Virus record (IMG/VR): IMGVR_UViG_3300045837_000213
Location: 29,432-93,431 of that record
Origin: a virus
Taxonomy: Duplodnaviria; Caudoviricetes
DNA length: 64,000 bases
Direction: 5' to 3' (one strand)
Numbering within the stretch: the first letter of the stretch is position 1; every line of letters begins with the position of its first letter. This document shows positions 13,001 through 28,219 of the stretch, piece by piece. The notes below the pieces were generated by a model that was given only the letters and a program-made list of their open reading frames with translations, ran no database searches and was not told the origin of the DNA. The translations under genes and the position numbers were made by a program.

Positions 13001-13693
13001 CAACGTCGTCGTGAAGGTCGAAGTGCCGGCCGCGCCCGACCAGTCGAACCTGACCGAGACCGCCGCCGCCGCCGAGTAGAAAAAGTTGAGGCGGTAAGCA
13101 GCGCCGTTGCCGACGACGCCGTTGAATTGCAGCGACGCGTTCAGCCCCATCGAGACGGCCTTGCCGCCCGACGCCGCGGCGTCCGTGATCGTGGTCGCGC
13201 CGCCCGCCGGGGTGTTCCCCACGTATTCGGCCTCGTATGAGCCGAAGGCTTCGGGGATGCCCAGTTGCGGGCGGATGTCGTAGATGAGGTCGGCGTCGGC
13301 GTAGAGCGCGAGCAGTTCGCACTCGGTGTCGGCGAACATGATGCCGATGTCGGCCTCGTAATTGTCGTTGATGATTTGGGTCGAGCGCGCGCCCTTGCCC
13401 GACCCTTGCGTCTCGGTCGTCGTCGTCTGGAATTTCCTGATGTCGCTTAAATAGACGACGTTTCCGGCGATGCGAAACCCGTGCGCGCTCCCGTCGGGCT
13501 GCACGCCCCCATAAACCAGCGGGATCATCGAGCCGTATTCGCTATCCTGTATCTGAACAGAGCCGGAGAGTTGGCCGCGCTCCTGGGCTTTCGGCTTCGG
13601 CGTTAATAAATAATTTAATGTGAACTCCGCCGCTGAGGTTGCGGCTGCGACCGCAGCAACGAGGAGTATACTTCCTGAGATCGGATCGGCCAT
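10088..13693 (-). CDS. tail tip / host-specificity protein (GTA-like), with a CBM-like YEAE insert
   Basis: YGSMIPLVYG...RIAGNVVY, PAYKGRCYLVLE and RVPNFT motifs; follows DUF2460-DUF2163-NlpC. Confidence 0.85.
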   Translation of the reverse strand: MADPISGSILLVAAVAAATSAAEFTLNYLLTPKPKAQERGQLSGSVQIQDSEYGSMIPLVYGGVQPDGSAHGFRIAGNVVYLSDIRKFQTTTTETQGSGKGARSTQIINDNYEADIGIMFADTECELLALYADADLIYDIRPQLGIPEAFGSYEAEYVGNTPAGGATTITDAAASGGKAVSMGLNASLQFNGVVGNGAAYRLNFFYSAAAAVSVRFDWSGAAGTSTFTTTLNSTGGVYALGYFSAPFALASGALNTIKVTNLSSTTLLLDKLTVSVPGVTGAVNPTPVTPPTINHLAPPSPLDPVYRDNPAANFSIVPAPDTTGMVSATVVGGAFSALRFYPGNEAQLPDPIIDAYWQTQFPVEYGSGLPVAPAYKGRCYLVLERFNLTNYQRVPNFTAVLRSKSIITAQAVLDDLAVRSGALTADYDFSALSSLYVRGMAVTQPASLKQIAAQTLQIRWGFDFAHIGGAVTAVLRGGAASYHVPPDHLGFGAQKAGGDSQSNDAPKLVRTSVKLNDVELPRRIDLTAYDPNAEFMNVTRSWMRDETTSQTPQQATTLMALSPDEVAAVARRLGETAWTEGRYAVEFDLPHQYLVATAATVLELDDGDTTYTVRVSERTGPVPGSLAFKGVFVAGAQYHEPVNLLPPTWTPPAVFFPPTLVGQFAETDYLTAEDAATGKEGYYVGVASYEQAPFRGCAVNVDRGAGYRKECDLTRYACVGVCATTLAATNTGSETIDADIYGTVQPTASFTDADIAAGLGRLMVGSERLQYKTATQLGGYANRWRFSNLVNRAQDQTAMSGHSSSERLLVLDDALKFLPVDASEALVARDHKFVAAGADIATVPATSYTFQADAFLPQPSNLKLTRLDASNGSPLTASWDKGRRGSLGPGGVAEVYRVRVFNGATLIRTHYVETGYSEPLAWQYLFGTSSIASVAEDGTLSTAGDATHTCDFQAGQIIYGDSLVHFTLGTHYPPLQFRLVGATVACGRDTATNEIVAPDHYWQNGDQVVFNSASPLSGAYYVVNATEGRFQIALIPNGTPVSLSGTPASFTMSYPALVPSPAFCSLDAVVASGVLYLRPCSVAFDSSKRIAVAGTPCAIEVASGVIRFYVGDLSKPIFVANVSPVRWPYQAQATVGQLSGEAQDALQARVDHTQARSFTYTRAMQQQDFNTGGGGTIPSALTVEVCEMFDGSPGLASTATG

Positions 13694-13903
13694 TTTGTGA
13701 GAAAAAGAAAAATGCCAGTGGGCAGACGTAGAGGTCTGCCCCCGCTGGCATTTTCGAGGTTCCGTTTTTTCCTTGATTATAGGTCGCGGTTCGCCGTCGC
13801 GGCCCGATCAGGAGTGACGCGCGTTGCGCGCGCTGTTAATACCATGCATTATAGCCGCGCCACTTGTCAATTTGTTTCTCACGAATGGTAAAGGAGGCGA
13901 AAA

Positions 13904-14356
13904 ATGACGCGAATTTTTGCGATGGCCCTACTTTTCTCAGCCTTCGCCCTGGCGCATGGCGCTCCGCAAGTCGCCGACAGGCCAGCAGGTAAGGCCACGG
14001 TCTATTTTTACAGGCTCAAGGAGTCGGGGCCCTACATCAAGACCAAGACGAGTGTTTACTGCGACGATGAAAAGCTGGCGGAGATAGGGAACGAGAGATA
14101 TTTCGCCGCCATGCTCGAACCCGGCATTCACACGTTCAGGTCAACAGATAAGCAGAGCGGCATCGAGAAAGAATTGAAGGCTGGCGAGGTCTATTATGTG
14201 AGAATCGAAATGAATTTGACCCGGATTAAATTATTCCGCAAGCCACCTTTCAGGGTGGCGACCGTCGAGCCTGAGCAGGGTAAGTATGAGGTAAAGCGAT
14301 TGAAGCCCATAAGTGAAGGTGATGTTAAGAACCATGAGAAGGTGACATTGCGGTAA
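13904..14356 (+). CDS. DUF2846-like secreted/envelope protein (moron)
   Basis: Signal peptide; ATVYFYR...LEPGIHTF...LKAGEVYYVRI; low GC; AAGGAGG RBS. Confidence 0.7.
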   Translation: MTRIFAMALLFSAFALAHGAPQVADRPAGKATVYFYRLKESGPYIKTKTSVYCDDEKLAEIGNERYFAAMLEPGIHTFRSTDKQSGIEKELKAGEVYYVRIEMNLTRIKLFRKPPFRVATVEPEQGKYEVKRLKPISEGDVKNHEKVTLR

Positions 14357-14596
14357 TTACAATTTAGGCTCGCGCTCGTGGACGTATCTCTCAAGGCAAG
14401 TGTAGCCGTCCGCTTTGGCTTGTGCGGCGTAGCCCCTGAGCCTGGCGATGATCTGCTCCGGCGTGCCCCGCGTCGTGTCATTCAAGATCGCCGCCGCCGA
14501 GAGCACGTCACCCCGCGTAAACTCGAACTCGTCTATGACGAGGAGTAAAGCGTCCTCCAACTCCGGCCTGCCCGTGTAGTAAAACCCCCCGCTCAC
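14357..14596 (-). CDS. hypothetical protein
   Basis: GTGA overlap with the upstream HTH gene. Confidence 0.55.
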   Translation of the reverse strand: MSGGFYYTGRPELEDALLLVIDEFEFTRGDVLSAAAILNDTTRGTPEQIIARLRGYAAQAKADGYTCLERYVHEREPKL

Positions 14597-14805
14597 TTCT
14601 TCCCGCCTTTCTTTGTTGATGGCCGCCCGCCCTTATCAGGCGTGAACTCTTGAAGGTCGCGGCGTGAGATGAATTTCTTTCCCGCGATTTCAATGAATGG
14701 GAGTTTACCTTGTCTTACTAGATGGCTAATCGCCTGTTTGGTAGTGCCGCGCTCTTCCGCGGCCTGCGTGATTGTAAGGAGTTCTTCGGGGTCTATTTTC
14801 ACCAT
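14593..14805 (-). CDS. helix-turn-helix DNA-binding protein (excisionase/MerR-like), probable cassette regulator
   Basis: LLTITQAAEERGTTKQAISHLVRQGKLP; basic GGRP tail; start chosen downstream of a -10 box. Confidence 0.8.
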   Translation of the reverse strand: MVKIDPEELLTITQAAEERGTTKQAISHLVRQGKLPFIEIAGKKFISRRDLQEFTPDKGGRPSTKKGGKK

Positions 14806-14811
14806 ATACCT

Positions 14812-14932
14812 ATTATACATACCTTTTGCCGGATGACAATATGTTATGCAAATTAAATATGCGGCTTGGCAATAAATCTCTTGCCTTCCGACAAAAGGTT
14901 ATTTATAATCCTTTTGTCGCTAGACAAAAGGA
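14812..14932. promoter_or_regulatory. divergent sigma70-type promoters with repeated operator-like motif
   Basis: + strand TTGCCT(14881)-17-TATAAT(14904); - strand TTGTCA-16-TATAAT (14839 to 14812); four CCTTTTGYC/GACAAAAGG copies. Confidence 0.7.
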
Positions 14933-14945
14933 AAGGCGGGCGAAC

Positions 14946-15074
14946 ATGGAAGACAAGAAAGAGCAGAAGCAGGAGACGCCGGAGGAGCGGGCCGAGCGGC
15001 AGGAGCTTAACCGGCGGATGTTCGAGTGGTTCTACGGCTACTGCGGCCAGATGGAGACGACGGTTCTATGTTAA
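14946..15074 (+). CDS. small hypothetical protein
   Basis: First ORF after the promoter; purine-rich RBS. Confidence 0.45.
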   Translation: MEDKKEQKQETPEERAERQELNRRMFEWFYGYCGQMETTVLC

Positions 15075-15427
15075 GGAAATTTCGTCCCATTACGCTCATC
15101 ACCCCTTTACAGGCGGCCACGCTTCTCGGCGTTGACCGCGCGGAACTCTTCAGGCGTTCGGGAGTCGCGGCGCACCTGGCGAAGGTGCGCCAAGGGAAAC
15201 GCTTCTCTTTCGTCCTCGAAGAAGTCGAGGCTCTCAGAAAGGAGTTACTTATGGATTACGTGATTCTATTGGCCCGCGACCCAAGCTCGCTCGCCTCTCA
15301 GGTAAACGACCTTATCAAGCGCGGGTGGCAGCCTCAGGGCGGCGTCGCCGCGAGCGAAGTTCACGAGGAAGGGACGGCGGCAGCGACGCAGTGGGCGCAG
15401 GCGATGGTTAAGCCCCAGTCGGAGTAA
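15068..15427 (+). CDS. HTH-like domain in frame with a DUF1737-like domain (internal start at 15251)
   Basis: QAATLLGVDR; AAGGAG before ATG 15251; VNDLIKRGWQPQGGV. Confidence 0.6.
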   Translation: MLRKFRPITLITPLQAATLLGVDRAELFRRSGVAAHLAKVRQGKRFSFVLEEVEALRKELLMDYVILLARDPSSLASQVNDLIKRGWQPQGGVAASEVHEEGTAAATQWAQAMVKPQSE

Positions 15428-15458
15428 ACGAACATTCCTCAGGAAGGGAGAGGGATTC

Positions 15459-15872
15459 ATGGCACAACGGGAAAGCACGGACGATATGTATTCATTACTC
15501 AAGAGGCGTTTCGACTGCTCGGAGCGGGCCGCGCTCGTCAGGCGGAAATTCGAGGTGCTGACGGTCGGGCGCGTCTCTTACCTGATTCAGTCAATCGTCT
15601 CCGAGGAGCAGGACACCTTCAAAGAGAGGTTCAACCGCCCGATCACCTTCGAGCAGGCGAAGGAGTTGGCGTCGCGGCTCCTGACGGGCGACTTCGGCGG
15701 CGGCGACGGGCAGATTCACGCCCTCATCGAGCTAATCGTCGGGATCGCCTACGAGGAGGATCACGTCGAGCGCGAACGGCTTGCGATGAGCGCTATCCGC
15801 GAGGCGTTCTTTTTCTCGGAGGCCCACGACGAAGCTTTGAACCAATTTTTCCATTGCGGGCCGAAGCAATGA
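15459..15872 (+). CDS. hypothetical protein
   Basis: GGAGAGG RBS; coupled to the HNH gene. Confidence 0.65.
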   Translation: MAQRESTDDMYSLLKRRFDCSERAALVRRKFEVLTVGRVSYLIQSIVSEEQDTFKERFNRPITFEQAKELASRLLTGDFGGGDGQIHALIELIVGIAYEEDHVERERLAMSAIREAFFFSEAHDEALNQFFHCGPKQ

Positions 15873-16174
15873 GGCGAAGATTGACTCAGGCGGAAAAGTT
15901 GCGACGGCTCTTCCAAAGGCGTCGTATGGCTACGGCCCGGCGGATGCTACGCCGGGCCGCGTCATACGGCGTAAGGGCCGAACATGTGACCCTCGACGAG
16001 ATCATCGAGCGCGACGGAACGCGCTGCCACCTTTGCGGCTTAGAAACAGACGTGGACGATAGGACTCACGACCACGTTGTGCCTCTCGTCAGGGGCGGGG
16101 AGCATACGACTATCAACTTACGCATCGCCCACAGGCGGTGTAATTCAATGAAGGGCGGTAAGAGTCACGCCTGA
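15869..16174 (+). CDS. HNH endonuclease
   Basis: RDGTRCHLCG...DHVVPLVRGGEH...NLRIAHRRCNSMKG. Confidence 0.9.
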   Translation: MRRRLTQAEKLRRLFQRRRMATARRMLRRAASYGVRAEHVTLDEIIERDGTRCHLCGLETDVDDRTHDHVVPLVRGGEHTTINLRIAHRRCNSMKGGKSHA

Positions 16175-16193
16175 TTCTAAAACGAGTTTTCTT

Positions 16194-16273
16194 GGGCGGG
16201 CATGGCTCGGTGAGGTAGGGCAACGCATGGAACGGTTTGGCCCGGCGCAGTATGGCCTGGCAAGGCATGGTTC
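16194..16273 (+). repeat. GGY-NN pentamer array 1 (16 units; putative guide RNA)
   Basis: GGGCG GGCAT GGCTC GGTGA GGTAG GGCAA CGCAT GGAAC GGTTT GGCCC GGCGC AGTAT GGCCT GGCAA GGCAT GGTTC. Confidence 0.9.
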
Positions 16274-16288
16274 AAACGCAAAAGGAGC

Positions 16289-16918
16289 ATGAGAATGTCA
16301 AACATCGTCAAGGCGAAAATCACGATCAGGGGTATGCGTCCGCTCTTACAACATCATTTCGGGCCGGACGCGTTGCCTTTGGAAAAGCAGGAGAAAGACG
16401 GCGTGGCGGGGAACTCGCCCAACGAGTGGCGGAAGACGGCGATGGTCACTAAAGACGGCCAGCTTTACCTTGAGCCGACCTACGCCTTTGCCACAATCCG
16501 CGACGCGGCGAAGTACACGAAAAAGGGGAGAGGCTCACTCCAAACCGCCGTCGCCGCCACCCTTCAAGTGCTGGACGACAGGATTTTGATTGATAGGTTT
16601 TTTCCGGGCTTCCCGAACGGACATGCCTTCGACATCCAGAAGGTCGAGCCGCCTTCGCTCGACAGGGAGCTTCCGGTTTACCTCGACGTGCAGTCTGTGA
16701 GGAATCCGACCACCAAAGCCCGCAACGTCAGGTACAGGGTGGCCGCATCCTCCGGCTGGTCGTGTTCGTTTACGATCATGTTCGACAAGACAGTCGTTGA
16801 CCGTAACCAGATGCAAGCTGTCCTTAATGACGCCGGCACTCTCGTCGGTATTGCCGACGGCAGAAGCGTTGGGTTTGGCAGGTTTTCCGTTGAAGCTTTC
16901 GACTTCTTAGAGTCTTAA
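16289..16918 (+). CDS. stand-alone Cas7/RAMP-like RNA-binding protein
   Basis: N-terminal strand ITIRGMRPLL; WSCSFTI; C-terminal Gly-rich loop GIADGRSVGFGRF; AAGGAG RBS (start 16289 or 16295); no other cas genes in the window. Confidence 0.8.
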   Translation: MRMSNIVKAKITIRGMRPLLQHHFGPDALPLEKQEKDGVAGNSPNEWRKTAMVTKDGQLYLEPTYAFATIRDAAKYTKKGRGSLQTAVAATLQVLDDRILIDRFFPGFPNGHAFDIQKVEPPSLDRELPVYLDVQSVRNPTTKARNVRYRVAASSGWSCSFTIMFDKTVVDRNQMQAVLNDAGTLVGIADGRSVGFGRFSVEAFDFLES

Positions 16919-16921
16919 CGC

Positions 16922-16987
16922 GGTGAGGCGGGGCAGGGTTCGGTATGGCGGGGCTTGGCGGTGGCCGGGCTTGGCGAGGCAAGGTCA
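16922..16987 (+). repeat. GGY-NN pentamer array 2 (13 units; putative guide RNA)
   Basis: GGTGA GGCGG GGCAG GGTTC GGTAT GGCGG GGCTT GGCGGT GGCCG GGCTT GGCGA GGCAA GGTCA. Confidence 0.9.
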
Positions 16988-17057
16988 CATACTGAAATCT
17001 GCTTCGGTCGCTCCACGGTCGAGGGCTTCGAGTTCATAGATTCATAAAGTTCCACTC

Positions 17058-17144
17058 GGCTTGGCTGCGGCTTGGCTGGTCATGGCAGGCTTCGGCTCGG
17101 TAGGGCAAGGCGATGGCAGGTTTGGGCTTGGCTAGGCGAGGAAC
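17058..17144 (+). repeat. GGY-NN pentamer array 3 (17 units; putative guide RNA)
   Basis: GGCTT GGCTGC GGCTT GGCTG GTCAT GGCAG GCTTC GGCTC GGTAG GGCAA GGCGAT GGCAG GTTTG GGCTT GGCTA GGCGA GGAAC. Confidence 0.85.
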
Positions 17145-17146
17145 GA

Positions 17147-17443
17147 ATGCCCAAGAAGCGACAGCCGCGCGAAATCTGGCTTAAGACGAAGCGCAGAATC
17201 TACGAGCGAGACGGGGGCTTATGTCAATACCCGTCTGGCAAGCATCCTGTCGCATTTGAGGAATCACATTGCGACCACATCCAGAGCGGGAAGCGAGCAA
17301 CGAACGCCGATAGCAACCTCCGAACTCTCTGCCGGATGCATCACGTCTTGAGAGCAGATAAGCGGCACAGGGGGCTAGTTGCCGCTGCCCTCCGAGATGG
17401 TATTATTGATGCCGGCTGGCGCAGTCAGGTATGGGAAGATTGA
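17147..17443 (+). CDS. HNH endonuclease
   Basis: RDGGLCQYP...HCDHIQSG...NADSNLRTLCRMHH; GAGGA RBS before MPKKRQ. Confidence 0.85.
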   Translation: MPKKRQPREIWLKTKRRIYERDGGLCQYPSGKHPVAFEESHCDHIQSGKRATNADSNLRTLCRMHHVLRADKRHRGLVAAALRDGIIDAGWRSQVWED

Positions 17444-17452
17444 ATTTCACGG

Positions 17453-17522
17453 GGCATGGCAGTGTTCGGCTAGGGTAGGTTAGGTTCGGCAAGGCGTGGC
17501 TCGGTAAGGCGTGGCAAGGAGA
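17453..17522 (+). repeat. GGY-NN pentamer array 4 (14 units; putative guide RNA)
   Basis: GGCAT GGCAG TGTTC GGCTA GGGTA GGTTA GGTTC GGCAA GGCGT GGCTC GGTAA GGCGT GGCAA GGAGA. Confidence 0.9.
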
Positions 17523-17553
17523 AAGGGCGGATGAACTCCGCCCTTTCTATTTT
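17520..17553 (+). terminator. intrinsic terminator closing the RAMP/HNH operon
   Basis: AGAAAGGGCGGA-TGAAC-TCCGCCCTTTCT followed by ATTTT. Confidence 0.85.
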
Positions 17554-17637
17554 GAAGTGATCGGGGCGCGTTGGCTATGGCGAACCCGCGCCCCTCCGGT
17601 GATAAGAAAATGCCAGCACAACCTTACCACCAAAACT

Positions 17638-18120
17638 TCACACGTCTTCTAGCGCGGCTATTTCGCGGACTCGGAACGCCGAAACATTAAAAATCGGATC
17701 AGTCCAGCGGCCTTCCGTCACACACCGCGTGGCGCGATAACGGTAGGCGTGAACGCAGCGCAGATTGTCCACCTCGTTAAGCGTCACGACTCCACAATGC
17801 TTTGCCGGTTCATTCAACCTATAGCAACGGGTCACTACATCGCCGGGCCTTGCGTCCCGCCAATGTTGCAGCCTCACCATGTGCTCGGCGAGTTTCGTAT
17901 CTAACAAGTCGCCTTCGGGAACGATATGGTATTCATAATCGTGTAGCTCGAAACCGCAGATGTCTGCCGCCGCCAGCAATACGCCCAAACAATCAAAGCC
18001 GACATCGCGCGAGCGACCCCGGTAGGCATACGGCGAGCCGACGAGGGAGCGCGCCGCGGCGACGAAGGCCGCGCGCAGCTCGTCCGCCGTCGGGTTAGGT
18101 GTGAGGGTTATTTCGGCCAC
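17638..18120 (-). CDS. NlpC/P60 tail-associated peptidase
   Basis: AARSLVGSPY...GFDCLGV...KHCGV...VHAY; GTG start overlapping the DUF2163 stop. Confidence 0.85.
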   Translation of the reverse strand: MAEITLTPNPTADELRAAFVAAARSLVGSPYAYRGRSRDVGFDCLGVLLAAADICGFELHDYEYHIVPEGDLLDTKLAEHMVRLQHWRDARPGDVVTRCYRLNEPAKHCGVVTLNEVDNLRCVHAYRYRATRCVTEGRWTDPIFNVSAFRVREIAALEDV

Positions 18121-19700: not shown

Positions 19701-22700
19701 TTAAGCGGGTTGGAATTGGAGGAGCTGCGCGCGGGCGGCGCGCCCGATCTGGCGGCCCGTCTTGCGCGCGCGCCCGCGCCCGGCTGACGTGTCCTCGTCG
19801 GCGCGGACGAAGACCTGCACGGCCCCGACCGAGACGCCGCCGCCGAAGGAAGAGCGCGACGCGTAAGACGGCGGCGTGTAGCCGGAGGCGAAACCGCCCG
19901 CGGCGAACGACCCGCCGCTGAGGCCCGTCATGCCGAGATAAGCCGCGAGCAGTTGCCTCATGCGACCGCGCTGCGCCGGGTCGGTCGTCAAGACGACCTC
20001 GTCGTAGCCGCCCTCGGCCACGCGGATGAAGCGCCCGCCCGGTCGCGCGCCGAAGATGCCGCCCGACGCGGCGTAGCCCGACGACGTGTCGGGATTGATG
20101 CCCGTCGGGTCGTCGGCCATCGTGCCGCCCGACGAGTCGTGCGGCTTGAAGAGTCCGTTGGTGAGTCCCGAAATGAAGCCGATGCCGGCGGCGGCGAGCA
20201 AGCCTTTCCAGAACGACCCTTGCGCCGCGCCCGCCGCGAGAACAGCCGCGATCGAGAGCATCGTCGAGACGATTGACTGCCCGACGCTCATCAGCGTCTT
20301 CGACTGCGCCTCGCCGGTCTTGCCGATCTGCGCGACCGAATTCTTCCACCCGTCGTTGATGGCCGTCGTGGCGGCGTGCCCCGCGCTTGAGACCGCTGAG
20401 GCGTCGGCCTTCTGAGAGTTGTTGTTGCCGCCGAGGTTGAAGAGTCGGCTGATCATCGCGCCGAACAGGCCGAAAGGCCCCAGCGCGCTCTGAACGCCGC
20501 TCTGCTGTCTCGGCTGTTGCGTCGTGCCCGTCGCCGAGCCGGGCAGCGGCGTGTTCGTCAACTGTCGGAGCAACGTCATCAGCTTCGATTCGAGCAGGTT
20601 CTCTTCCATCTTGATAATCATGTTGAGGAAGTCCTGCCCGATCTGCTGGAACATCGCCTTCCAGCCCTTCGTCCGAAGGGTCTGGAGCGCGCCGTCGATC
20701 AAGGAGATGGCCTTGTCGGCCATCTGCTTGAGCCGGTCGTTCTGCTTGGCGATTAAATCGTCCAACAATGCCAACTGACGGACGTTAGAGGATTGGCGCA
20801 CCGCCTCCATCTCGTCATCAAGGGCCTTCAACTTTTCGAGTTTTTTAACTCCGTCCTGTTCGGTCGCCTCAGTCGTCTCGCGCTCAAGTTGTAGCTCGCG
20901 TAACTTTCTCTCCTGCTGCAACTGCTCGCCTTCGAGGTCGAACTGGTACTGCTTCTGCCAGAGCGCCTGCTTGTTCTTACCCGACGCCTCCATCACCTTC
21001 AACAGCGCTTCCTGCGCCGAGCGCTGGTCTTCGGCGGTCGCGTCGGTGATCTCGGCGAGAGACTTCCTGTAGTTCTGCAACGTCGAGAGGTCGTCGGCGA
21101 CCGCCGTCTGCTCGTCCTTGTTGAATTGGGCGAACGCCTGCTTGCGTTGCAGGAAGAACGCCTTGATCTGGTCGATGGCCTCCTGCGCGGCCTCCGGGTT
21201 CGACGCGTTGGCGAGGATGGTCTTGAACGCGTCCTGCATCCCCTCGCTGTTCGTCGCGTTCACCGCGTCGTTGACCGCCTGCGAGATCATCTCCGCGAGG
21301 TCGAGGTCGGGGCCCGAGAGCGCCGACACCTCGCCCGCCCCGCCCATCGCGTGCGTGAGCGCGCCTTCGAGGACTTTGCCCTGCGCCTCGGCGACGGCGC
21401 CTAAGGCCGTGAAGCGCGCGCGCATCGCGGCGACGTGCGTCGTCGTTCCCGCCTCGATCTGGAGCTGGAGTTCCGCGTCCTGCGCGCGCTGCGCCTCTTC
21501 GAGTAAAGAGACCGCCGATTGCGCGAACTTCTGCTGTATGTCATAGCGGTGTTGTTCGCCCTCGGCGGTGTACTGCGAGAGTTTGTCCTGGTGCTCGCGC
21601 TCGGCGGCCTGCTCGCGCTGGCGGATGTCTTTGAGCTTAACGTCGCGCTTCGCGCCGTCGAGTCCGGCGGCGGCCGCCTCTTCCGCCTTGAAGCCGGCCC
21701 GCACGGCCTTGTAGCGCTCGTCTTCGAGTTGTTTGAGCGTCGAGACGTAGGACTCGTAATCGGTGAGGTTCTGGTCGAGGAAGCGCTTGGCGATCTGGTT
21801 GCCCTGCTGATAGACCGACTCTGCCTCGCGCAAGTCTATCTGCGCTGATTCCAGCGCGGCGTCGGCCATCTCGTTGCCGGCCTTGCGCCCCTTGCGGCCG
21901 CCGCCCGACTTCTCGCCCATCAGCCCGGAGACGTGTTTCGCATAATCATCTTGCGCCTTCTTCGTCGCGGCTTTGACAGCGGCATCGGCCTGCATCAGCC
22001 CGAGCATGAAAGGCGACGGCGGCTGCGCCAGGCCCCGCGCGAGCGCCGAGCCGACGCCCGCGTTGCCGCGCGCGTAATAGTCCTGCGCCGCCCTCTCGCG
22101 CATCGCGTATGGCGCGGTGAATTTGCCGCCCGAAGCGGCGCGCTCTTCCGACGTGCGCCCGTCGCCCGACGCGTAACCGCTGACCGCCTGAATGACCGAG
22201 AGTGCCGCGCGCCACGCGACGGCCACCTCGTGCGCCTTCTCGATGACGGCCAGCGCGACGCCGCCGACGATCTGCCCCCACGTCCTGAAATCGTCGCCGT
22301 TCTGAGAGAGCCACTTCGAGAGGTTGTCGAAGAGCGCCTCGAAGATGGGCATGACCTCCTCGCCCACCTTGACTTTCATCACGTCGAACTGCGCGGCGAG
22401 CAACTTCTGCTTGGCCTCGAACTCCTGCGCCGCCGCCGCGTCCTTGTCCGACAGCACCGCGCCGAGGTCTTCGAGGTGCTTGATGAACGTCGGCAGGTCG
22501 CCGTGCGCCTGCGCGATGATCGCCAGCATCGCCTTGCCGCCGCGCCCGAACGCCTCCATCGCCAGTGCCGTCTTCGTCGTGCCGTCAGGCAGCTTCGACA
22601 GGACGGTGAACATCCCTTCGAGCGCCTTCTGGTTGTCGCGCACGTCCACGTTCGCGTCCTTCAAAACGCGCGACAGTTTCGACGACTTCTCGGCGCCGGC

Positions 22701-23699
22701 CTCTAACTTCTTCTCGAAGATGCCGAGGCCTGCGCCGATCTGATTGAACGAGACGCCGACCTGTGAGGCGGCCACGTCGAGCGCGTTCAGTTCGTGCGCC
22801 GTGTAGCCCGTCTCCATCGAGAGGTCTTTGTATTTCGCCCCGACCTCGGCGGCTGAACTGGCGAGCTGATAAGCGCCGTACACGACGCCGACAGACGCGG
22901 CGGCGACCGCCGCGAGTGCCGCGACGACGAGGAGTAGCGGCCCGGAGACTTCGCCCAGCATGGCGACGAGGCCGCCGCCGGCGGAGGCCAGCCCGGCCAG
23001 CCCCTGCTCTGCCGTCGAGGCCGCGCCCTTCAGAGACGCCAGTTCCTTCTCCGTGTCGGCGATCTGAACTTTCGTGTTGCCGAGCGCGCGCGTCGCGCTG
23101 CGCTCCATGTTCCCGAACTTGGCGGCGGCGCGGTCGACCTCGTTCGCCAACTCCTGCGAGATGCCGCCCGTCGCGCCGAGAATGAGCGCGTCACGTTCTT
23201 TCGCGCCCGCCGTGTTGTTGTAGTTGCGGAGAAAATCGGAGGAGAAGCTCTGCCCCGTGCGGCGCTGGAGGTCGTCGACCAGCCGCTGCGTGCCGCCGGC
23301 GAAGTCCGACGTGATGAGCGACGCCTTGGCGCGCAGCGAGGCGAGTTTCGATTCGAGGCCGACTATCGACATACCCAACTGCTCGACCTGCTTGCGCGCC
23401 GACACAATCGCCGTCTCGCTGGCCTGCCCCGCCGTGAAGAAGCTCTGTCGCAGGGATGAGGCGCGCCGCTCGACCTGCGCGAGCACGCCGCCGACTAAGG
23501 GCACGCGCTGGAGTATGCGCGCCGTCGCCTGGTCGAGTCCGGTGAACGCCTGCGAGCCGACGCGCGAGTAGGTGCGGTCAATTCTGGCCGCCGCGTCGCC
23601 GAGGCTGCGCTCCATGCGCGCGAGCTTGGCCTCGACCGGCGTGATGTCGGCGTCGGCGGTGACGAGGATCGAACCTATTTCGTTACCGGCTAAGTCCAC
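19701..23699 (-). CDS. tape measure protein
   Basis: 1332 aa, Ala-rich helical; C-terminal AEGGYDEVV...FAAGG; position in the tail operon. Confidence 0.9.
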   Translation of the reverse strand: MDLAGNEIGSILVTADADITPVEAKLARMERSLGDAAARIDRTYSRVGSQAFTGLDQATARILQRVPLVGGVLAQVERRASSLRQSFFTAGQASETAIVSARKQVEQLGMSIVGLESKLASLRAKASLITSDFAGGTQRLVDDLQRRTGQSFSSDFLRNYNNTAGAKERDALILGATGGISQELANEVDRAAAKFGNMERSATRALGNTKVQIADTEKELASLKGAASTAEQGLAGLASAGGGLVAMLGEVSGPLLLVVAALAAVAAASVGVVYGAYQLASSAAEVGAKYKDLSMETGYTAHELNALDVAASQVGVSFNQIGAGLGIFEKKLEAGAEKSSKLSRVLKDANVDVRDNQKALEGMFTVLSKLPDGTTKTALAMEAFGRGGKAMLAIIAQAHGDLPTFIKHLEDLGAVLSDKDAAAAQEFEAKQKLLAAQFDVMKVKVGEEVMPIFEALFDNLSKWLSQNGDDFRTWGQIVGGVALAVIEKAHEVAVAWRAALSVIQAVSGYASGDGRTSEERAASGGKFTAPYAMRERAAQDYYARGNAGVGSALARGLAQPPSPFMLGLMQADAAVKAATKKAQDDYAKHVSGLMGEKSGGGRKGRKAGNEMADAALESAQIDLREAESVYQQGNQIAKRFLDQNLTDYESYVSTLKQLEDERYKAVRAGFKAEEAAAAGLDGAKRDVKLKDIRQREQAAEREHQDKLSQYTAEGEQHRYDIQQKFAQSAVSLLEEAQRAQDAELQLQIEAGTTTHVAAMRARFTALGAVAEAQGKVLEGALTHAMGGAGEVSALSGPDLDLAEMISQAVNDAVNATNSEGMQDAFKTILANASNPEAAQEAIDQIKAFFLQRKQAFAQFNKDEQTAVADDLSTLQNYRKSLAEITDATAEDQRSAQEALLKVMEASGKNKQALWQKQYQFDLEGEQLQQERKLRELQLERETTEATEQDGVKKLEKLKALDDEMEAVRQSSNVRQLALLDDLIAKQNDRLKQMADKAISLIDGALQTLRTKGWKAMFQQIGQDFLNMIIKMEENLLESKLMTLLRQLTNTPLPGSATGTTQQPRQQSGVQSALGPFGLFGAMISRLFNLGGNNNSQKADASAVSSAGHAATTAINDGWKNSVAQIGKTGEAQSKTLMSVGQSIVSTMLSIAAVLAAGAAQGSFWKGLLAAAGIGFISGLTNGLFKPHDSSGGTMADDPTGINPDTSSGYAASGGIFGARPGGRFIRVAEGGYDEVVLTTDPAQRGRMRQLLAAYLGMTGLSGGSFAAGGFASGYTPPSYASRSSFGGGVSVGAVQVFVRADEDTSAGRGRARKTGRQIGRAARAQLLQFQPA

Positions 23700-23719: not shown

Positions 23720-23817
23720 GTCATGAGTGATGGGTAATGAGTGATGGGTGATGAGTGATGAGTGATGGGTAATGAGTGATGGGTGACGGGTGATGAGTGA
23801 TGAGTGACGGGTGACGA
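23720..23817. repeat. heptamer tandem repeat (GTRAYGR) x14
   Basis: GTGATGA/GTGATGG/GTAATGA/GTGACGG units, intergenic. Confidence 0.9.
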
Positions 23818-23838
23818 GTCGGAAATGAGGCGCGGGCC

Positions 23839-27898: not shown

Positions 27899-28219
27899 TT
27901 ACTTAGCCGCGGGCGTTTCGGCCTCGGCCTTCGCCTCGGATTCCTTCCTGGCCTTCGCCTCGGCGTCTGCCTTAGCTTTGGCTTCCGCCTTCGCCTTGGC
28001 CTGCGCCTCGCGCTTCGCTTTGGCCTCCGCCTCAGCCGCGGCCTTGGCAGCCTCTTCAGCCTCCGCCTTAGCTTTCGCTTCAGCCTCGGCGCGCTCGCGC
28101 TCGGCGTCCTCGAAGAGCTTGTGCGTCGAGGCGTCGAAGTCGCTCTCGTTGATCGTGGCGAAGCCGCTCGGCGCGCCTTCGTGCGCGATCCTTACTGTCG
28201 GAACCTTCATGGTCGTCAC
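27899..28219 (-). CDS. small capsid-associated protein with Ala/Glu/Lys repeats
   Basis: INESDFDASTHKL followed by AEAKAK repeats. Confidence 0.7.
   Translation of the reverse strand: MTTMKVPTVRIAHEGAPSGFATINESDFDASTHKLFEDAERERAEAEAKAKAEAEEAAKAAAEAEAKAKREAQAKAKAEAKAKADAEAKARKESEAKAEAETPAAK

What the first reader, a model, noticed from the sequence alone, without database searches (positions are those of the whole stretch)
17058..17124. Array 3 decodes to the tape-measure gene at 20740-20777
NN series: TT TG TT TG AT AG TC TC AG AA GA AG TG (first two variable bases used for the two 6-nt units). Gapped + strand from 20740: TT TG TT GC AT AA TC TC AA AA GC AA TG. That gives 8/13 exact dinucleotides and 20/26 bases. 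The guide is compatible with QLSLLDDLIQKQN and the gene encodes QLALLDDLIAKQN. Three mismatches are Leu CTn in the guide versus TTG/TTG/TTA in the gene, codons that are otherwise uncommon in this GC-rich gene.
Basis: partly seen in the sequence, partly recalled or inferred. Interest (0 to 1): 0.9.

Follow-up and report, generated by a model that had tools for sequence, protein, structure and literature searches.

The report
VIPR guide RNA against rival tape-measure
This 67-base stretch is a guide RNA of a phage VIPR system (a CRISPR-like system first described in 2026 preprints) whose variable letter pairs, read two bases on and one base off, spell a site in the tape-measure gene of rival phages, while the phage's own copy of that site carries mostly silent codon changes that spoil the match.

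Summary
The 13 NN dinucleotides of array 3 match the + strand at 20740-20777 (two read, one skipped) at 20/26 bases. This is the best hit in the window on either strand; the next best is 16. The skipped base is always codon position 3 of the tape-measure gene.

All four Leu codons in the site are TTR, against 24 of 129 in the whole gene (p=0.001). Two related tape-measure genes match the guide better than the resident does (24/26 and 23/26).

The phenomenon is already published. It is a VIPR system (bioRxiv 10.64898/2026.04.26.720920, .720927 and 2026.10.15.759431): a small RAMP protein (Vipr) plus GGY-NN vrRNAs that read dsDNA with a 1-nt skip. Here the 207-aa neighbour is a Vipr homologue with a Cas7-like fold, and its only PDB sequence hit is SUSP1 Vipr.

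This scan has met VIPR in other genomes before.

Possibly new: this clade always carries a 98-aa HNH gene. Its guides aim at genes flanking the cassette's own insertion site in a cassette-less relative. The resident escapes by Leu/Ser/Arg codon-family switches. That suggests RNA-guided homing or exclusion, which is untested.

The parts
17058..17124 (+). vrRNA 3 guide region: 13 GGY-NN units (two are 6 nt)
   Evidence: The NN series matches tape-measure sites under the 1-nt skip rule.
17125..17144 (+). 3' tail or handle of vrRNA 3 (GGCTT GGCTA GGCGA GGAAC), running into the HNH ribosome-binding site
   Evidence: A conserved terminal motif (about GGYAAGRCAAGG) ends arrays across the family. These units do not match the target in any phage.
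20739..20777 (-). Near-cognate (escaped) site for vrRNA 3 in the resident tape-measure gene, codons 975-987 (QLALLDDLIAKQN), 20/26 NN match
   Evidence: The homologous sites in L086 and L087 match 24/26 and 23/26.
19701..23699 (-). Tape-measure protein gene (1332 aa)
   Evidence: PHROG tape-measure families, E 6e-16 to 2e-10. Lies upstream of DUF2460, Gp84, NlpC/P60 and the tail-protein gene.
16295..16918 (+). vipr gene (207 aa, RAMP/Cas7-like)
   Evidence: 1314 homologues. Foldseek top hits are Csm3/Cas7 at E 8e-7; VIA Z 9.4. The family profile hits PDB 36pp 'SUSP1 Vipr protein' at E 1.1e-8. BLASTP to SUSP1 Vipr gives E 4e-11.
16194..16273 (+). vrRNA array 1 (16 units)
   Evidence: Resident site 13437-13477 matches 21/28. 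The L087 tail-gene site matches 25/28, and 21/22 over the first 11 units.
16922..16987 (+). vrRNA array 2 (13 units)
   Evidence: Units 1-11 match the G-loop region of vipr genes in many other loci at 18/20 to 20/22, against 16/20 for its own vipr.
16988..17057 (+). Relic of a vipr 3' end (FGRSTVEGFEFIDS*) between arrays 2 and 3
   Evidence: Translation compared with the intact C-terminus GFGRFSVEAFDFLES*.
17147..17443 (+). HNH nuclease gene (98 aa), the conserved accessory gene of this clade
   Evidence: PHROG HNH families at E about 1e-9. A homologue lies just downstream of vipr in 50 of 50 loci that have at least 900 nt of room.
17453..17522 (+). vrRNA array 4 (13-14 units)
   Evidence: The first 11 units match the NlpC/P60-like gene of L087 at 21/22. 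The resident's homologous site 17920-17952 matches only 14/22.
17515..17554 (+). Hairpin closing the cassette transcript (likely terminator)
   Evidence: RNA fold -24 kcal/mol, z -5.2. The consensus terminator scan did not flag it.
13437..13477 (-). Near-cognate (escaped) site for vrRNA 1 in the tail-protein gene, with TTA/AGC/AGG where L087 has CTC/TCC/CGC
13658..17744 (+). Lower-GC island holding the cassette; absent from the collinear relative L087
   Evidence: blastn blocks: L087 108-6810 aligns with window 24447-17745, and L087 6953-10757 with window 13657-9870. GC is 0.56 against about 0.65.

Best explanation
Array 3 is a vrRNA of a VIPR system. By analogy with the published SUSP1 and P. 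fulva systems, it is transcribed with the cassette on the + strand. Copies of the 207-aa Vipr protein coat it, one protomer per pentamer. Each protomer sequesters a GGY and presents the NN dinucleotide. The 13 NN pairs then pair with double-stranded DNA, skipping every third base.

Its cognate target is a 13-codon site in the tape-measure gene of phages related to the resident. There the skipped base falls on the codon wobble position. The resident's own site has 6 of 26 mismatches, below the 80% NN match the VIPR authors use to call a target. Three of the six are Leu TTR-for-CTN switches, so the resident is probably immune.

Shown here: the code, the better match in relatives, the codon anomaly, Vipr homology and fold, and HNH linkage. 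Inferred from the literature: RNP formation, DNA binding and silencing. Inferred only: any cleavage by the HNH protein.
For: 1. The match is the window-wide best: 20 against 16, p about 0.003 for the fixed guide and about 0.02 for the local score.
2. The homologous tape-measure sites in L086 and L087 match 24/26 and 23/26, with 0 of 200 permutations reaching that.
3. Two other guides of the same cassette hit the same cassette-less relative L087. Array 1 matches the tail gene at 25/28. Array 4 matches the NlpC/P60-like gene at 21/22. Array 2 hits rival vipr genes at up to 20/22.
4. Only the 1-nt skip in the correct unit order gives a signal across 93 arrays: 17 with p<=0.02, against 0-1 in the controls.
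5. The skipped base is codon position 3 in most significant hits.
6. The resident site holds 4 of 4 TTR Leu codons (p=0.001). All 4 conserved Leu columns are family-switched against L087, where the gene-wide rate is 38 of 202.
7. The 207-aa protein is a Vipr. PDB 36pp SUSP1 Vipr is the only sequence hit (E 1.1e-8). BLASTP gives E 4e-11, and R143/D188/R190 align with SUSP1 R138/D177/R179, which contact GGY. The fold is Cas7/Csm3-like. Hits in 117 Ounavirinae phages sit next to arrays as in the paper.
Against: - There are no expression data for this contig, so RNA ends and processing are unknown.
- No 26/26 target was found. Exact-pattern scans of viral and genome collections found nothing. Only two homologous tape-measure genes are on hand, both from metagenomes.
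- The guide's TCn (Ser) codon is GCn (Ala) in all three phages.
- The resident site at 77% (79% with one extra upstream unit) lies just under the 80% threshold, so some self-binding cannot be excluded.
- Leu/Ser/Arg family switches are common between these genomes, at 19% of conserved columns. The escape reading therefore rests on local clustering, and TMP residues 927-936 form another cluster of four.
- The AF2 model is only moderate: pLDDT 65, pTM 0.67.
Confidence: 0.9

Rival explanations
1. Same VIPR guide, but the function is RNA-guided homing or marker exclusion rather than silencing alone. The Vipr-vrRNA complex marks sites in cassette-less relatives. The always-linked 98-aa HNH protein cuts there. 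Recombinational repair then copies the cassette, together with the immune flanking alleles, into the rival genome.
For: - An HNH homologue lies downstream of vipr in 50 of 50 loci with room.
- The island is absent from the collinear relative L087.
- The cognate sites of arrays 1 and 4 lie about 190 and about 177 nt on either side of that empty site.
- Significant same-contig near-matches cluster at cassette edges in 7 loci of at least 4 kb: Fisher 5.7e-5, against 0.014 for the control. L089 is a further case.
- Resident alleles carry escape changes, as in classical homing-endonuclease immunity.
Against: - No cleavage data exist.
- The published VIPR systems act by binding and repression.
- Array 3's own target is 3.1 kb from the insertion site, far for homing.
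- The control arrays also show a mild edge bias.
- How a cassette would acquire guides for a new site is unknown.
- An earlier bold reading of a VIPR locus in this scan partly fell on later checking.
Confidence: 0.35
2. Autoregulation: vrRNA 3 binds the resident's own tape-measure site despite six mismatches and tunes or blocks the phage's own tail operon.
For: - The best hit in the contig is in the resident's own operon.
- 77-79% NN match is close to the 80% cut-off.
- Several relatives have 85-94% matches over 8-10 units to adjacent genes.
Against: - Relatives without the cassette match better than the resident for three guides.
- Resident sites show changes that lower the match: synonymous family switches at arrays 1 and 3, and amino-acid changes at array 4.
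- The authors report that disturbing NN pairing abolishes silencing, and that no self-hits reach 80%.
Confidence: 0.05
3. Chance resemblance: the arrays are structural or protein-binding repeats with no guide role, and 20/26 is a lucky hit among many implicit trials.
For: - The single-array p-value after sub-range correction is only about 0.02.
- Arrays 2 and 4 have no significant hit inside the window.
Against: - Homologous sites in two other phages improve to 23-24/26 instead of regressing.
- Three other guides find strong targets outside the window.
- The family-wide signal appears only with the 1-nt skip.
- The rule has been shown experimentally for homologous systems.
Confidence: 0.02

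Closest known systems
VIPR systems (Vipr + vrRNA), type II of Escherichia phage SUSP1 and the Pseudomonas fulva prophage; bioRxiv 10.64898/2026.04.26.720920, 10.64898/2026.04.26.720927, 10.64898/2026.10.15.759431; PDB 36pp
   Same: - A small RAMP protein of about 200 aa with conserved thumb Arg and G-loop Asp/Arg.
- GGY-NN pentamer arrays of 13-16 units placed upstream and downstream of vipr.
- A conserved 3' end on each array.
- The 1-nt skip rule, with the skip on the wobble position.
- Targets on either strand, in rival phage genes and in rival vipr genes.
- No self-hit at 80% or above.
   Different: - Only about 30% identity to Ounavirinae Vipr, with significant alignment only in the C-terminal third.
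- The accessory gene is a 98-aa HNH nuclease, not the DNA-binding vap1.
- The 3' tail is a short GGYAAGRCAAGG-like motif. The SUSP1 pseudoknot tail was not looked for.
- The cassette sits inside a GTA-like tail operon, and its guides point at that operon in relatives.
Nuclease-associated VIPR types (III-V) of the same preprint
   Same: Vipr plus vrRNAs plus a predicted nuclease. An HNH domain is listed among vap proteins.
   Different: The preprint describes types III and V as enriched in defence islands and serving host immunity. Here, and in most related loci seen, the cassette lies in phage structural-gene regions. I could not assign the type because no supplementary tables are held.
Free-standing HNH homing endonucleases of phages (e.g. 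T4 mob and other intergenic HEGs; from general knowledge)
   Same: - A nuclease-bearing insertion between conserved genes.
- Presence/absence polymorphism among relatives.
- Recognition sites near the empty site.
- A resident protected by sequence differences, with tolerance of wobble variation.
   Different: Recognition here would be by RNA guides on a RAMP filament, not by the nuclease's own DNA-binding domain. Cleavage is not shown.
Class 1 CRISPR Cas7 backbones (Csm3, Cmr4, Cas7)
   Same: RAMP fold (Foldseek E 8e-7, Z about 9). One protomer per repeat of guide, with thumb-mediated interruption of pairing.
   Different: 5-nt period with 2 paired bases, against a 6-nt period with 5 paired. 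No CRISPR repeats, Cas1/Cas2 or other cas genes nearby. Guides are hard-wired tandem repeats.

Membership tests
VIPR system | Vipr protein: small single-RRM RAMP with G-loop and thumb, homologous to SUSP1 Vipr | tested here: met
   - The family profile hits PDB 36pp 'SUSP1 Vipr protein' at E 1.1e-8, the only PDB hit.
- BLASTP gives 42% identity over residues 142-200, E 4e-11.
- tblastn finds 117 Ounavirinae phages at about 30% identity over 94-97% of the length.
- The fold matches Csm3/Cas7.
VIPR system | vrRNAs of about 9-16 tandem GGY-NN pentamers flanking vipr on the same strand | tested here: met
   Four arrays of 13-17 units lie in the window. Across 82 loci there are 102 arrays on the vipr strand against 13 on the other.
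VIPR system | Conserved 3' tail after the variable repeats | tested here: inconclusive
   A conserved terminal motif (about GGYAAGRCAAGG) is seen across the family. Its secondary structure or pseudoknot was not examined.
VIPR system | NN dinucleotides specify targets with exactly one skipped base | tested here: met
   In the window only gap 1 gives p of about 0.02 (arrays 1 and 3). Across the family, 17 of 93 arrays reach p<=0.02 with gap 1, against 0-1 of 93 for gap 0, gap 2, reversed order or swapped bases.
VIPR system | Skipped base falls on the codon wobble position of protein-coding targets | tested here: met
   The skipped base is codon position 3 at the array 3 and array 1 sites and in most significant hits in relatives.
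VIPR system | Natural targets at 80% NN match or above in competing elements; no self-target at 80% or above | tested here: met
   Array 3 matches 92% in L086 and 88% in L087, against 77% in the resident. Array 1 matches 89% in L087 against 75%. Array 4 matches 95% in L087 against 64%.
VIPR system | Adjacent accessory (vap) gene | tested here: met
   A 98-aa HNH gene lies downstream of vipr in 50 of 50 loci with room.
VIPR system | vrRNA expression, RNP formation and dsDNA binding or silencing | not testable with these tools
This needs bench work.
CRISPR-Cas (class 1) | Repeat-spacer array with 6-nt Cas7 periodicity, plus adaptation and other cas genes | tested here: not met
   The arrays have a 5-nt period with 2 variable bases. 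The neighbouring ORFs scanned gave only HNH, DUF2846 and tail families.
Free-standing phage homing endonuclease cassette | Nuclease-bearing insertion present in some collinear genomes and absent from others | tested here: met
   The island 13658-17744 is replaced by about 140 nt in L087. L087 shows no Vipr, HNH or arrays.
Free-standing phage homing endonuclease cassette | Nuclease cleaves the cassette-less allele near the insertion point and the cassette is copied in | not testable with these tools
   Only guide matches about 180-190 nt on either side of the empty site are shown. No cleavage or inheritance data exist.

The most novel reading that the evidence does not exclude
The Vipr-HNH clade is an RNA-guided homing or marker-exclusion element. 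Its hard-wired guides recognise, through codon positions 1-2, conserved sites on both sides of the cassette's own insertion point in cassette-less relatives (about 180-190 bp each side in L087), and further into the same tail operon (the tape-measure gene). The HNH protein cuts there. The carrier is immune because its alleles have switched Leu/Ser/Arg codon families, the only silent escape from a wobble-skipping guide, or have changed residues. None of the three VIPR preprints mentions homing or this escape route.
Probability: 0.3. Interest if true: 0.8.

Novelty: new member of a known kind. Interest (0 to 1): 0.45.

Why it matters
[quoted passage not shown] Three guides of one cassette match the tail operon of a cassette-less relative at 88-95%. 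The carrier's own copies match at 64-77%, partly through synonymous Leu/Ser/Arg codon-family switches.

This shows how a genome can silently evade a guide that ignores wobble positions. It also explains the rare TTA/TTG/AGG/AGC codons at these target sites in GC-rich phage genes.

The strict HNH linkage and the flank-directed guides raise a testable idea: some VIPR cassettes may spread or exclude rivals by guided cleavage.

Tried and rejected
Searches that found nothing or could not run:
- Exact gapped-pattern searches for the array 3 target found nothing. I tried the full 13 units, then a version allowing the L086/L087 variants, in viral contigs and genome contigs.
- The search for related loci with the tape-measure segment in viral contigs found no relative (after a frame slip).
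- blastn of the cassette against isolated phages gave no match.
- Rfam gave nothing above chance; PrrB/RsmZ at E 0.7 was ignored.
- The held genome is only this 93-kb contig, so no host prophage targets could be sought.
- The records behind L086 and L087 are not held for whole-contig search.
- P0009's contig had no DNA on hand.
- The consensus terminator scan missed the hairpin after array 4, although it folds at -24 kcal/mol.

Ideas considered before the code was verified, then dropped:
- A TRAP-like or CsrA-like protein-titrating RNA.
- Two-tier G-quadruplex repeats.
- Small-terminase or cos-site binding repeats next to HNH.
- Phased DNA-bending repeats.
- A translated minus-strand ORF through the array.

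None of these explains the coded matches.

My automatic array finder merges neighbouring arrays and sometimes runs through the HNH gene (for example L058 and L077). Unit counts for very long 'arrays' are therefore unreliable.

Full report
**Observation.** The stretch 17058-17124 is 13 head-to-tail units of GGY plus two variable bases; two units are 6 nt long. The variable pairs read TT TG TT TG AT AG TC TC AG AA GA AG TG.

I scanned every position of both strands. This is the single best hit, at 20 against a next best of 16. Permuting the order of the 13 units reaches 20 in only 5 of 1500 trials. I then used all 16 units with a local score, so that the choice of sub-range is paid for. The same site is still first, with p about 0.02. 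Gaps of 0 or 2 bases give nothing.

The target lies in a 1332-aa minus-strand tape-measure gene, at codons 975-987, QLALLDDLIAKQN. Every skipped base is a third codon position.

**Context.** The window carries a GTA-like tail module on the minus strand: tape measure, DUF2460, Gp84, NlpC/P60 and a Phage-tail_3 protein. A lower-GC island on the + strand interrupts it.

The island holds, in order:
- an HNH gene (15854-16174);
- array 1;
- a 207-aa gene (16295-16918);
- array 2;
- a relic of the 207-aa gene's 3' end;
- array 3;
- a second HNH gene (17147-17443);
- array 4;
- a strong hairpin.

**Relatives.** The 207-aa protein has 1314 homologues and no Pfam family. In 82 loci fetched around homologues, GGY-NN arrays lie on the gene's strand 102 times and on the other strand 13 times. 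A homologue of the 98-aa HNH protein follows the gene in 50 of 50 loci that have room for it.

I decoded 93 non-redundant arrays against their own contigs:
- With a 1-nt skip, 17 arrays have p<=0.02.
- With no skip, a 2-nt skip, reversed unit order or swapped bases, 0-1 arrays do.

Most significant hits put the skipped base on codon position 3. Most lie in genes directly beside the cassette.

**The decisive test for this finding.** Two tape-measure homologues exist in the protein collection, 69% identical in this region. I fetched their contigs as L086 and L087.

Array 3's 13 pairs match the homologous site at 24/26 in L086 and 23/26 in L087, against 20/26 in the resident. No permutation out of 200 reached these scores.

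| | Codons at the site |
|---|---|
| Guide | CAn CTn TCn TTn CTn GAn GAn CTn ATn CAn AAn CAn AAn |
| L087 | CAA CTC GCG CTG CTC GAC GAC CTC ATC CGG AAG CAG AAC |
| Resident | CAG TTG GCA TTG TTG GAC GAT TTA ATC GCC AAG CAG AAC |

(All.)

So three of the resident's six mismatches are synonymous Leu TTR-for-CTN switches. In the whole gene 24 of 129 Leu codons are TTR, but in the site 4 of 4 are (Fisher p=0.001). Against L087, all four conserved Leu columns in the site are family-switched, where the gene-wide rate is 38 of 202.

**The sister arrays behave the same way.** L087 is collinear with the window at 72-77% identity but lacks the island. About 140 nt stand in place of window 13658-17744. 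No Vipr, HNH or array is present in L087.
- **Array 1** matches the L087 tail gene at 25/28, and at 21/22 over the first 11 units. The resident reads TTA AGC ... AGG where L087 reads CTC TCC ... CGC for the same Leu, Ser and Arg.
- **Array 4** matches the L087 NlpC/P60-like gene at 21/22. The resident site has changed residues (FELHDYEYHIV against FETFDYFYDLI) and matches 14/22.
- **Array 2** matches the G-loop region of vipr genes in many other loci at up to 20/22, against 16/20 for its own gene.

**What it is.** A literature search found the system already described. These are VIPR systems:
- bioRxiv 10.64898/2026.04.26.720920 gives the discovery, the 1-nt skip rule, wobble alignment, targets in rival phages and rival VIPRs, seven types and accessory vap genes that include nucleases.
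- bioRxiv 10.64898/2026.04.26.720927 gives cryo-EM structures. One Vipr protomer binds each repeat, the GGY is sequestered, the NN is presented, and an R-loop triplex forms.
- bioRxiv 10.64898/2026.10.15.759431 covers phage-satellite competition.

Membership was tested rather than assumed:
- The family profile's only PDB sequence hit is 36pp, 'SUSP1 Vipr protein' (E 1.1e-8).
- BLASTP to the SUSP1 protein gives 42% identity over residues 142-200 (E 4e-11). R143, D188 and R190 align with the SUSP1 residues R138, D177 and R179 that hold the GGY.
- tblastn finds 117 Ounavirinae phages. One of them shows the published layout of one upstream and three downstream arrays.
- An AlphaFold model (pLDDT 65, pTM 0.67) matches Csm3/Cas7 proteins: Foldseek E 8e-7 with 107 hits at E<=1e-3, and Z 9.4.

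**How it most likely works.** By analogy with the characterised systems, vrRNA 3 is coated by Vipr and binds the tape-measure site of related rival phages on double-stranded DNA. It is indifferent to wobble changes. The carrier's own site, at 77% NN match, falls under the 80% the authors use to call a target. They report no self-hits above that level. These steps are inferred from homology; nothing here shows expression or binding.

**What may be new.** The three preprints' main texts do not mention homing, HNH-dependent cleavage or codon-family switching as an escape route. In this clade:
- the HNH gene is invariably linked to vipr;
- the cognate sites of arrays 1 and 4 lie about 190 and about 177 nt on either side of the empty site in L087;
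- near-self hits in other loci crowd the cassette edges, with Fisher 5.7e-5 in 7 loci of at least 4 kb, though controls also show a mild bias at 0.014, and L089 adds another case.

This is the geometry of a homing endonuclease cassette with an RNA-guided recognition module. I rate it at about 0.3. There are no cleavage data. Array 3's own target is 3.1 kb away. An earlier bold reading of a VIPR locus in this scan partly fell on later checking.

**Verdict.** The thing itself is a new member of a kind published in 2026, and this scan has met VIPR in several other genomes already. Interest is moderate. The code is no longer a surprise, but the guide, cognate-target and escaped-self triad and the HNH and flank geometry are worth a specialist's attention.

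Noticed in passing
window 16988-17057: Between arrays 2 and 3 lies a relic of a vipr 3' end (FGRSTVEGFEFIDS*, against the intact GFGRFSVEAFDFLES*). Like the intact gene, it is followed directly by an array. This suggests guides are gained by recombination between cassettes at the vipr 3' end.
   Followed up: partly
window 15854-16174: The first HNH gene (106 aa; Pfam HNH E 5e-9) has homologues in only 2 of 82 related loci, unlike the 98-aa HNH that is always present. It may be a separate free-standing homing endonuclease riding in the island.
   Followed up: partly
window 13700-13760 and 17600-17615: AAAATGCCAG / CTGGCATTTT occurs near both edges of the island. The left copy is part of a long hairpin that looks like a two-way terminator. 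Possible junction repeats of the insertion.
   Followed up: no
window 20890-20920 (TMP codons 927-936): A second cluster of four Leu/Arg codon-family switches against L087 (codons 927, 931, 933, 936) lies about 40 codons upstream of the array 3 site. It could be the scar of escape from another, unseen guide, or chance.
   Followed up: no
L007 4227-4291; window 16778-16815: One array in L007 matches a conserved site in the vipr genes of dozens of loci at 20-24 of 24-26 bases, including this window's vipr at 21/26. This looks like an anti-VIPR guide.
   Followed up: partly
L066 1980-2100, L070 10912-10986, L060 10902-11159 -> L067 5604-5701: Guides from three different contigs converge on one about 100-nt stretch of L067 at 37/38, 29/30 and 26/28. 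These are near-perfect cross-phage targets.
   Followed up: no
L038 934-1063 -> L038 1126-1193: A 23-unit guide spells codons 2-24 of the tail-like gene that starts 60 nt downstream of the cassette (33/46). It matches the homologue in L045 better (37/44).
   Followed up: partly
window 23723-23819: A 7-nt tandem repeat (ATGAGTG, about 14 copies; also read as 21-nt units) sits just upstream of the tape-measure start. Unexplained.
   Followed up: no
window 27918-28087: An imperfect 6/18/24-nt periodic GCC-rich repeat, probably a coding low-complexity region on the minus strand.
   Followed up: no
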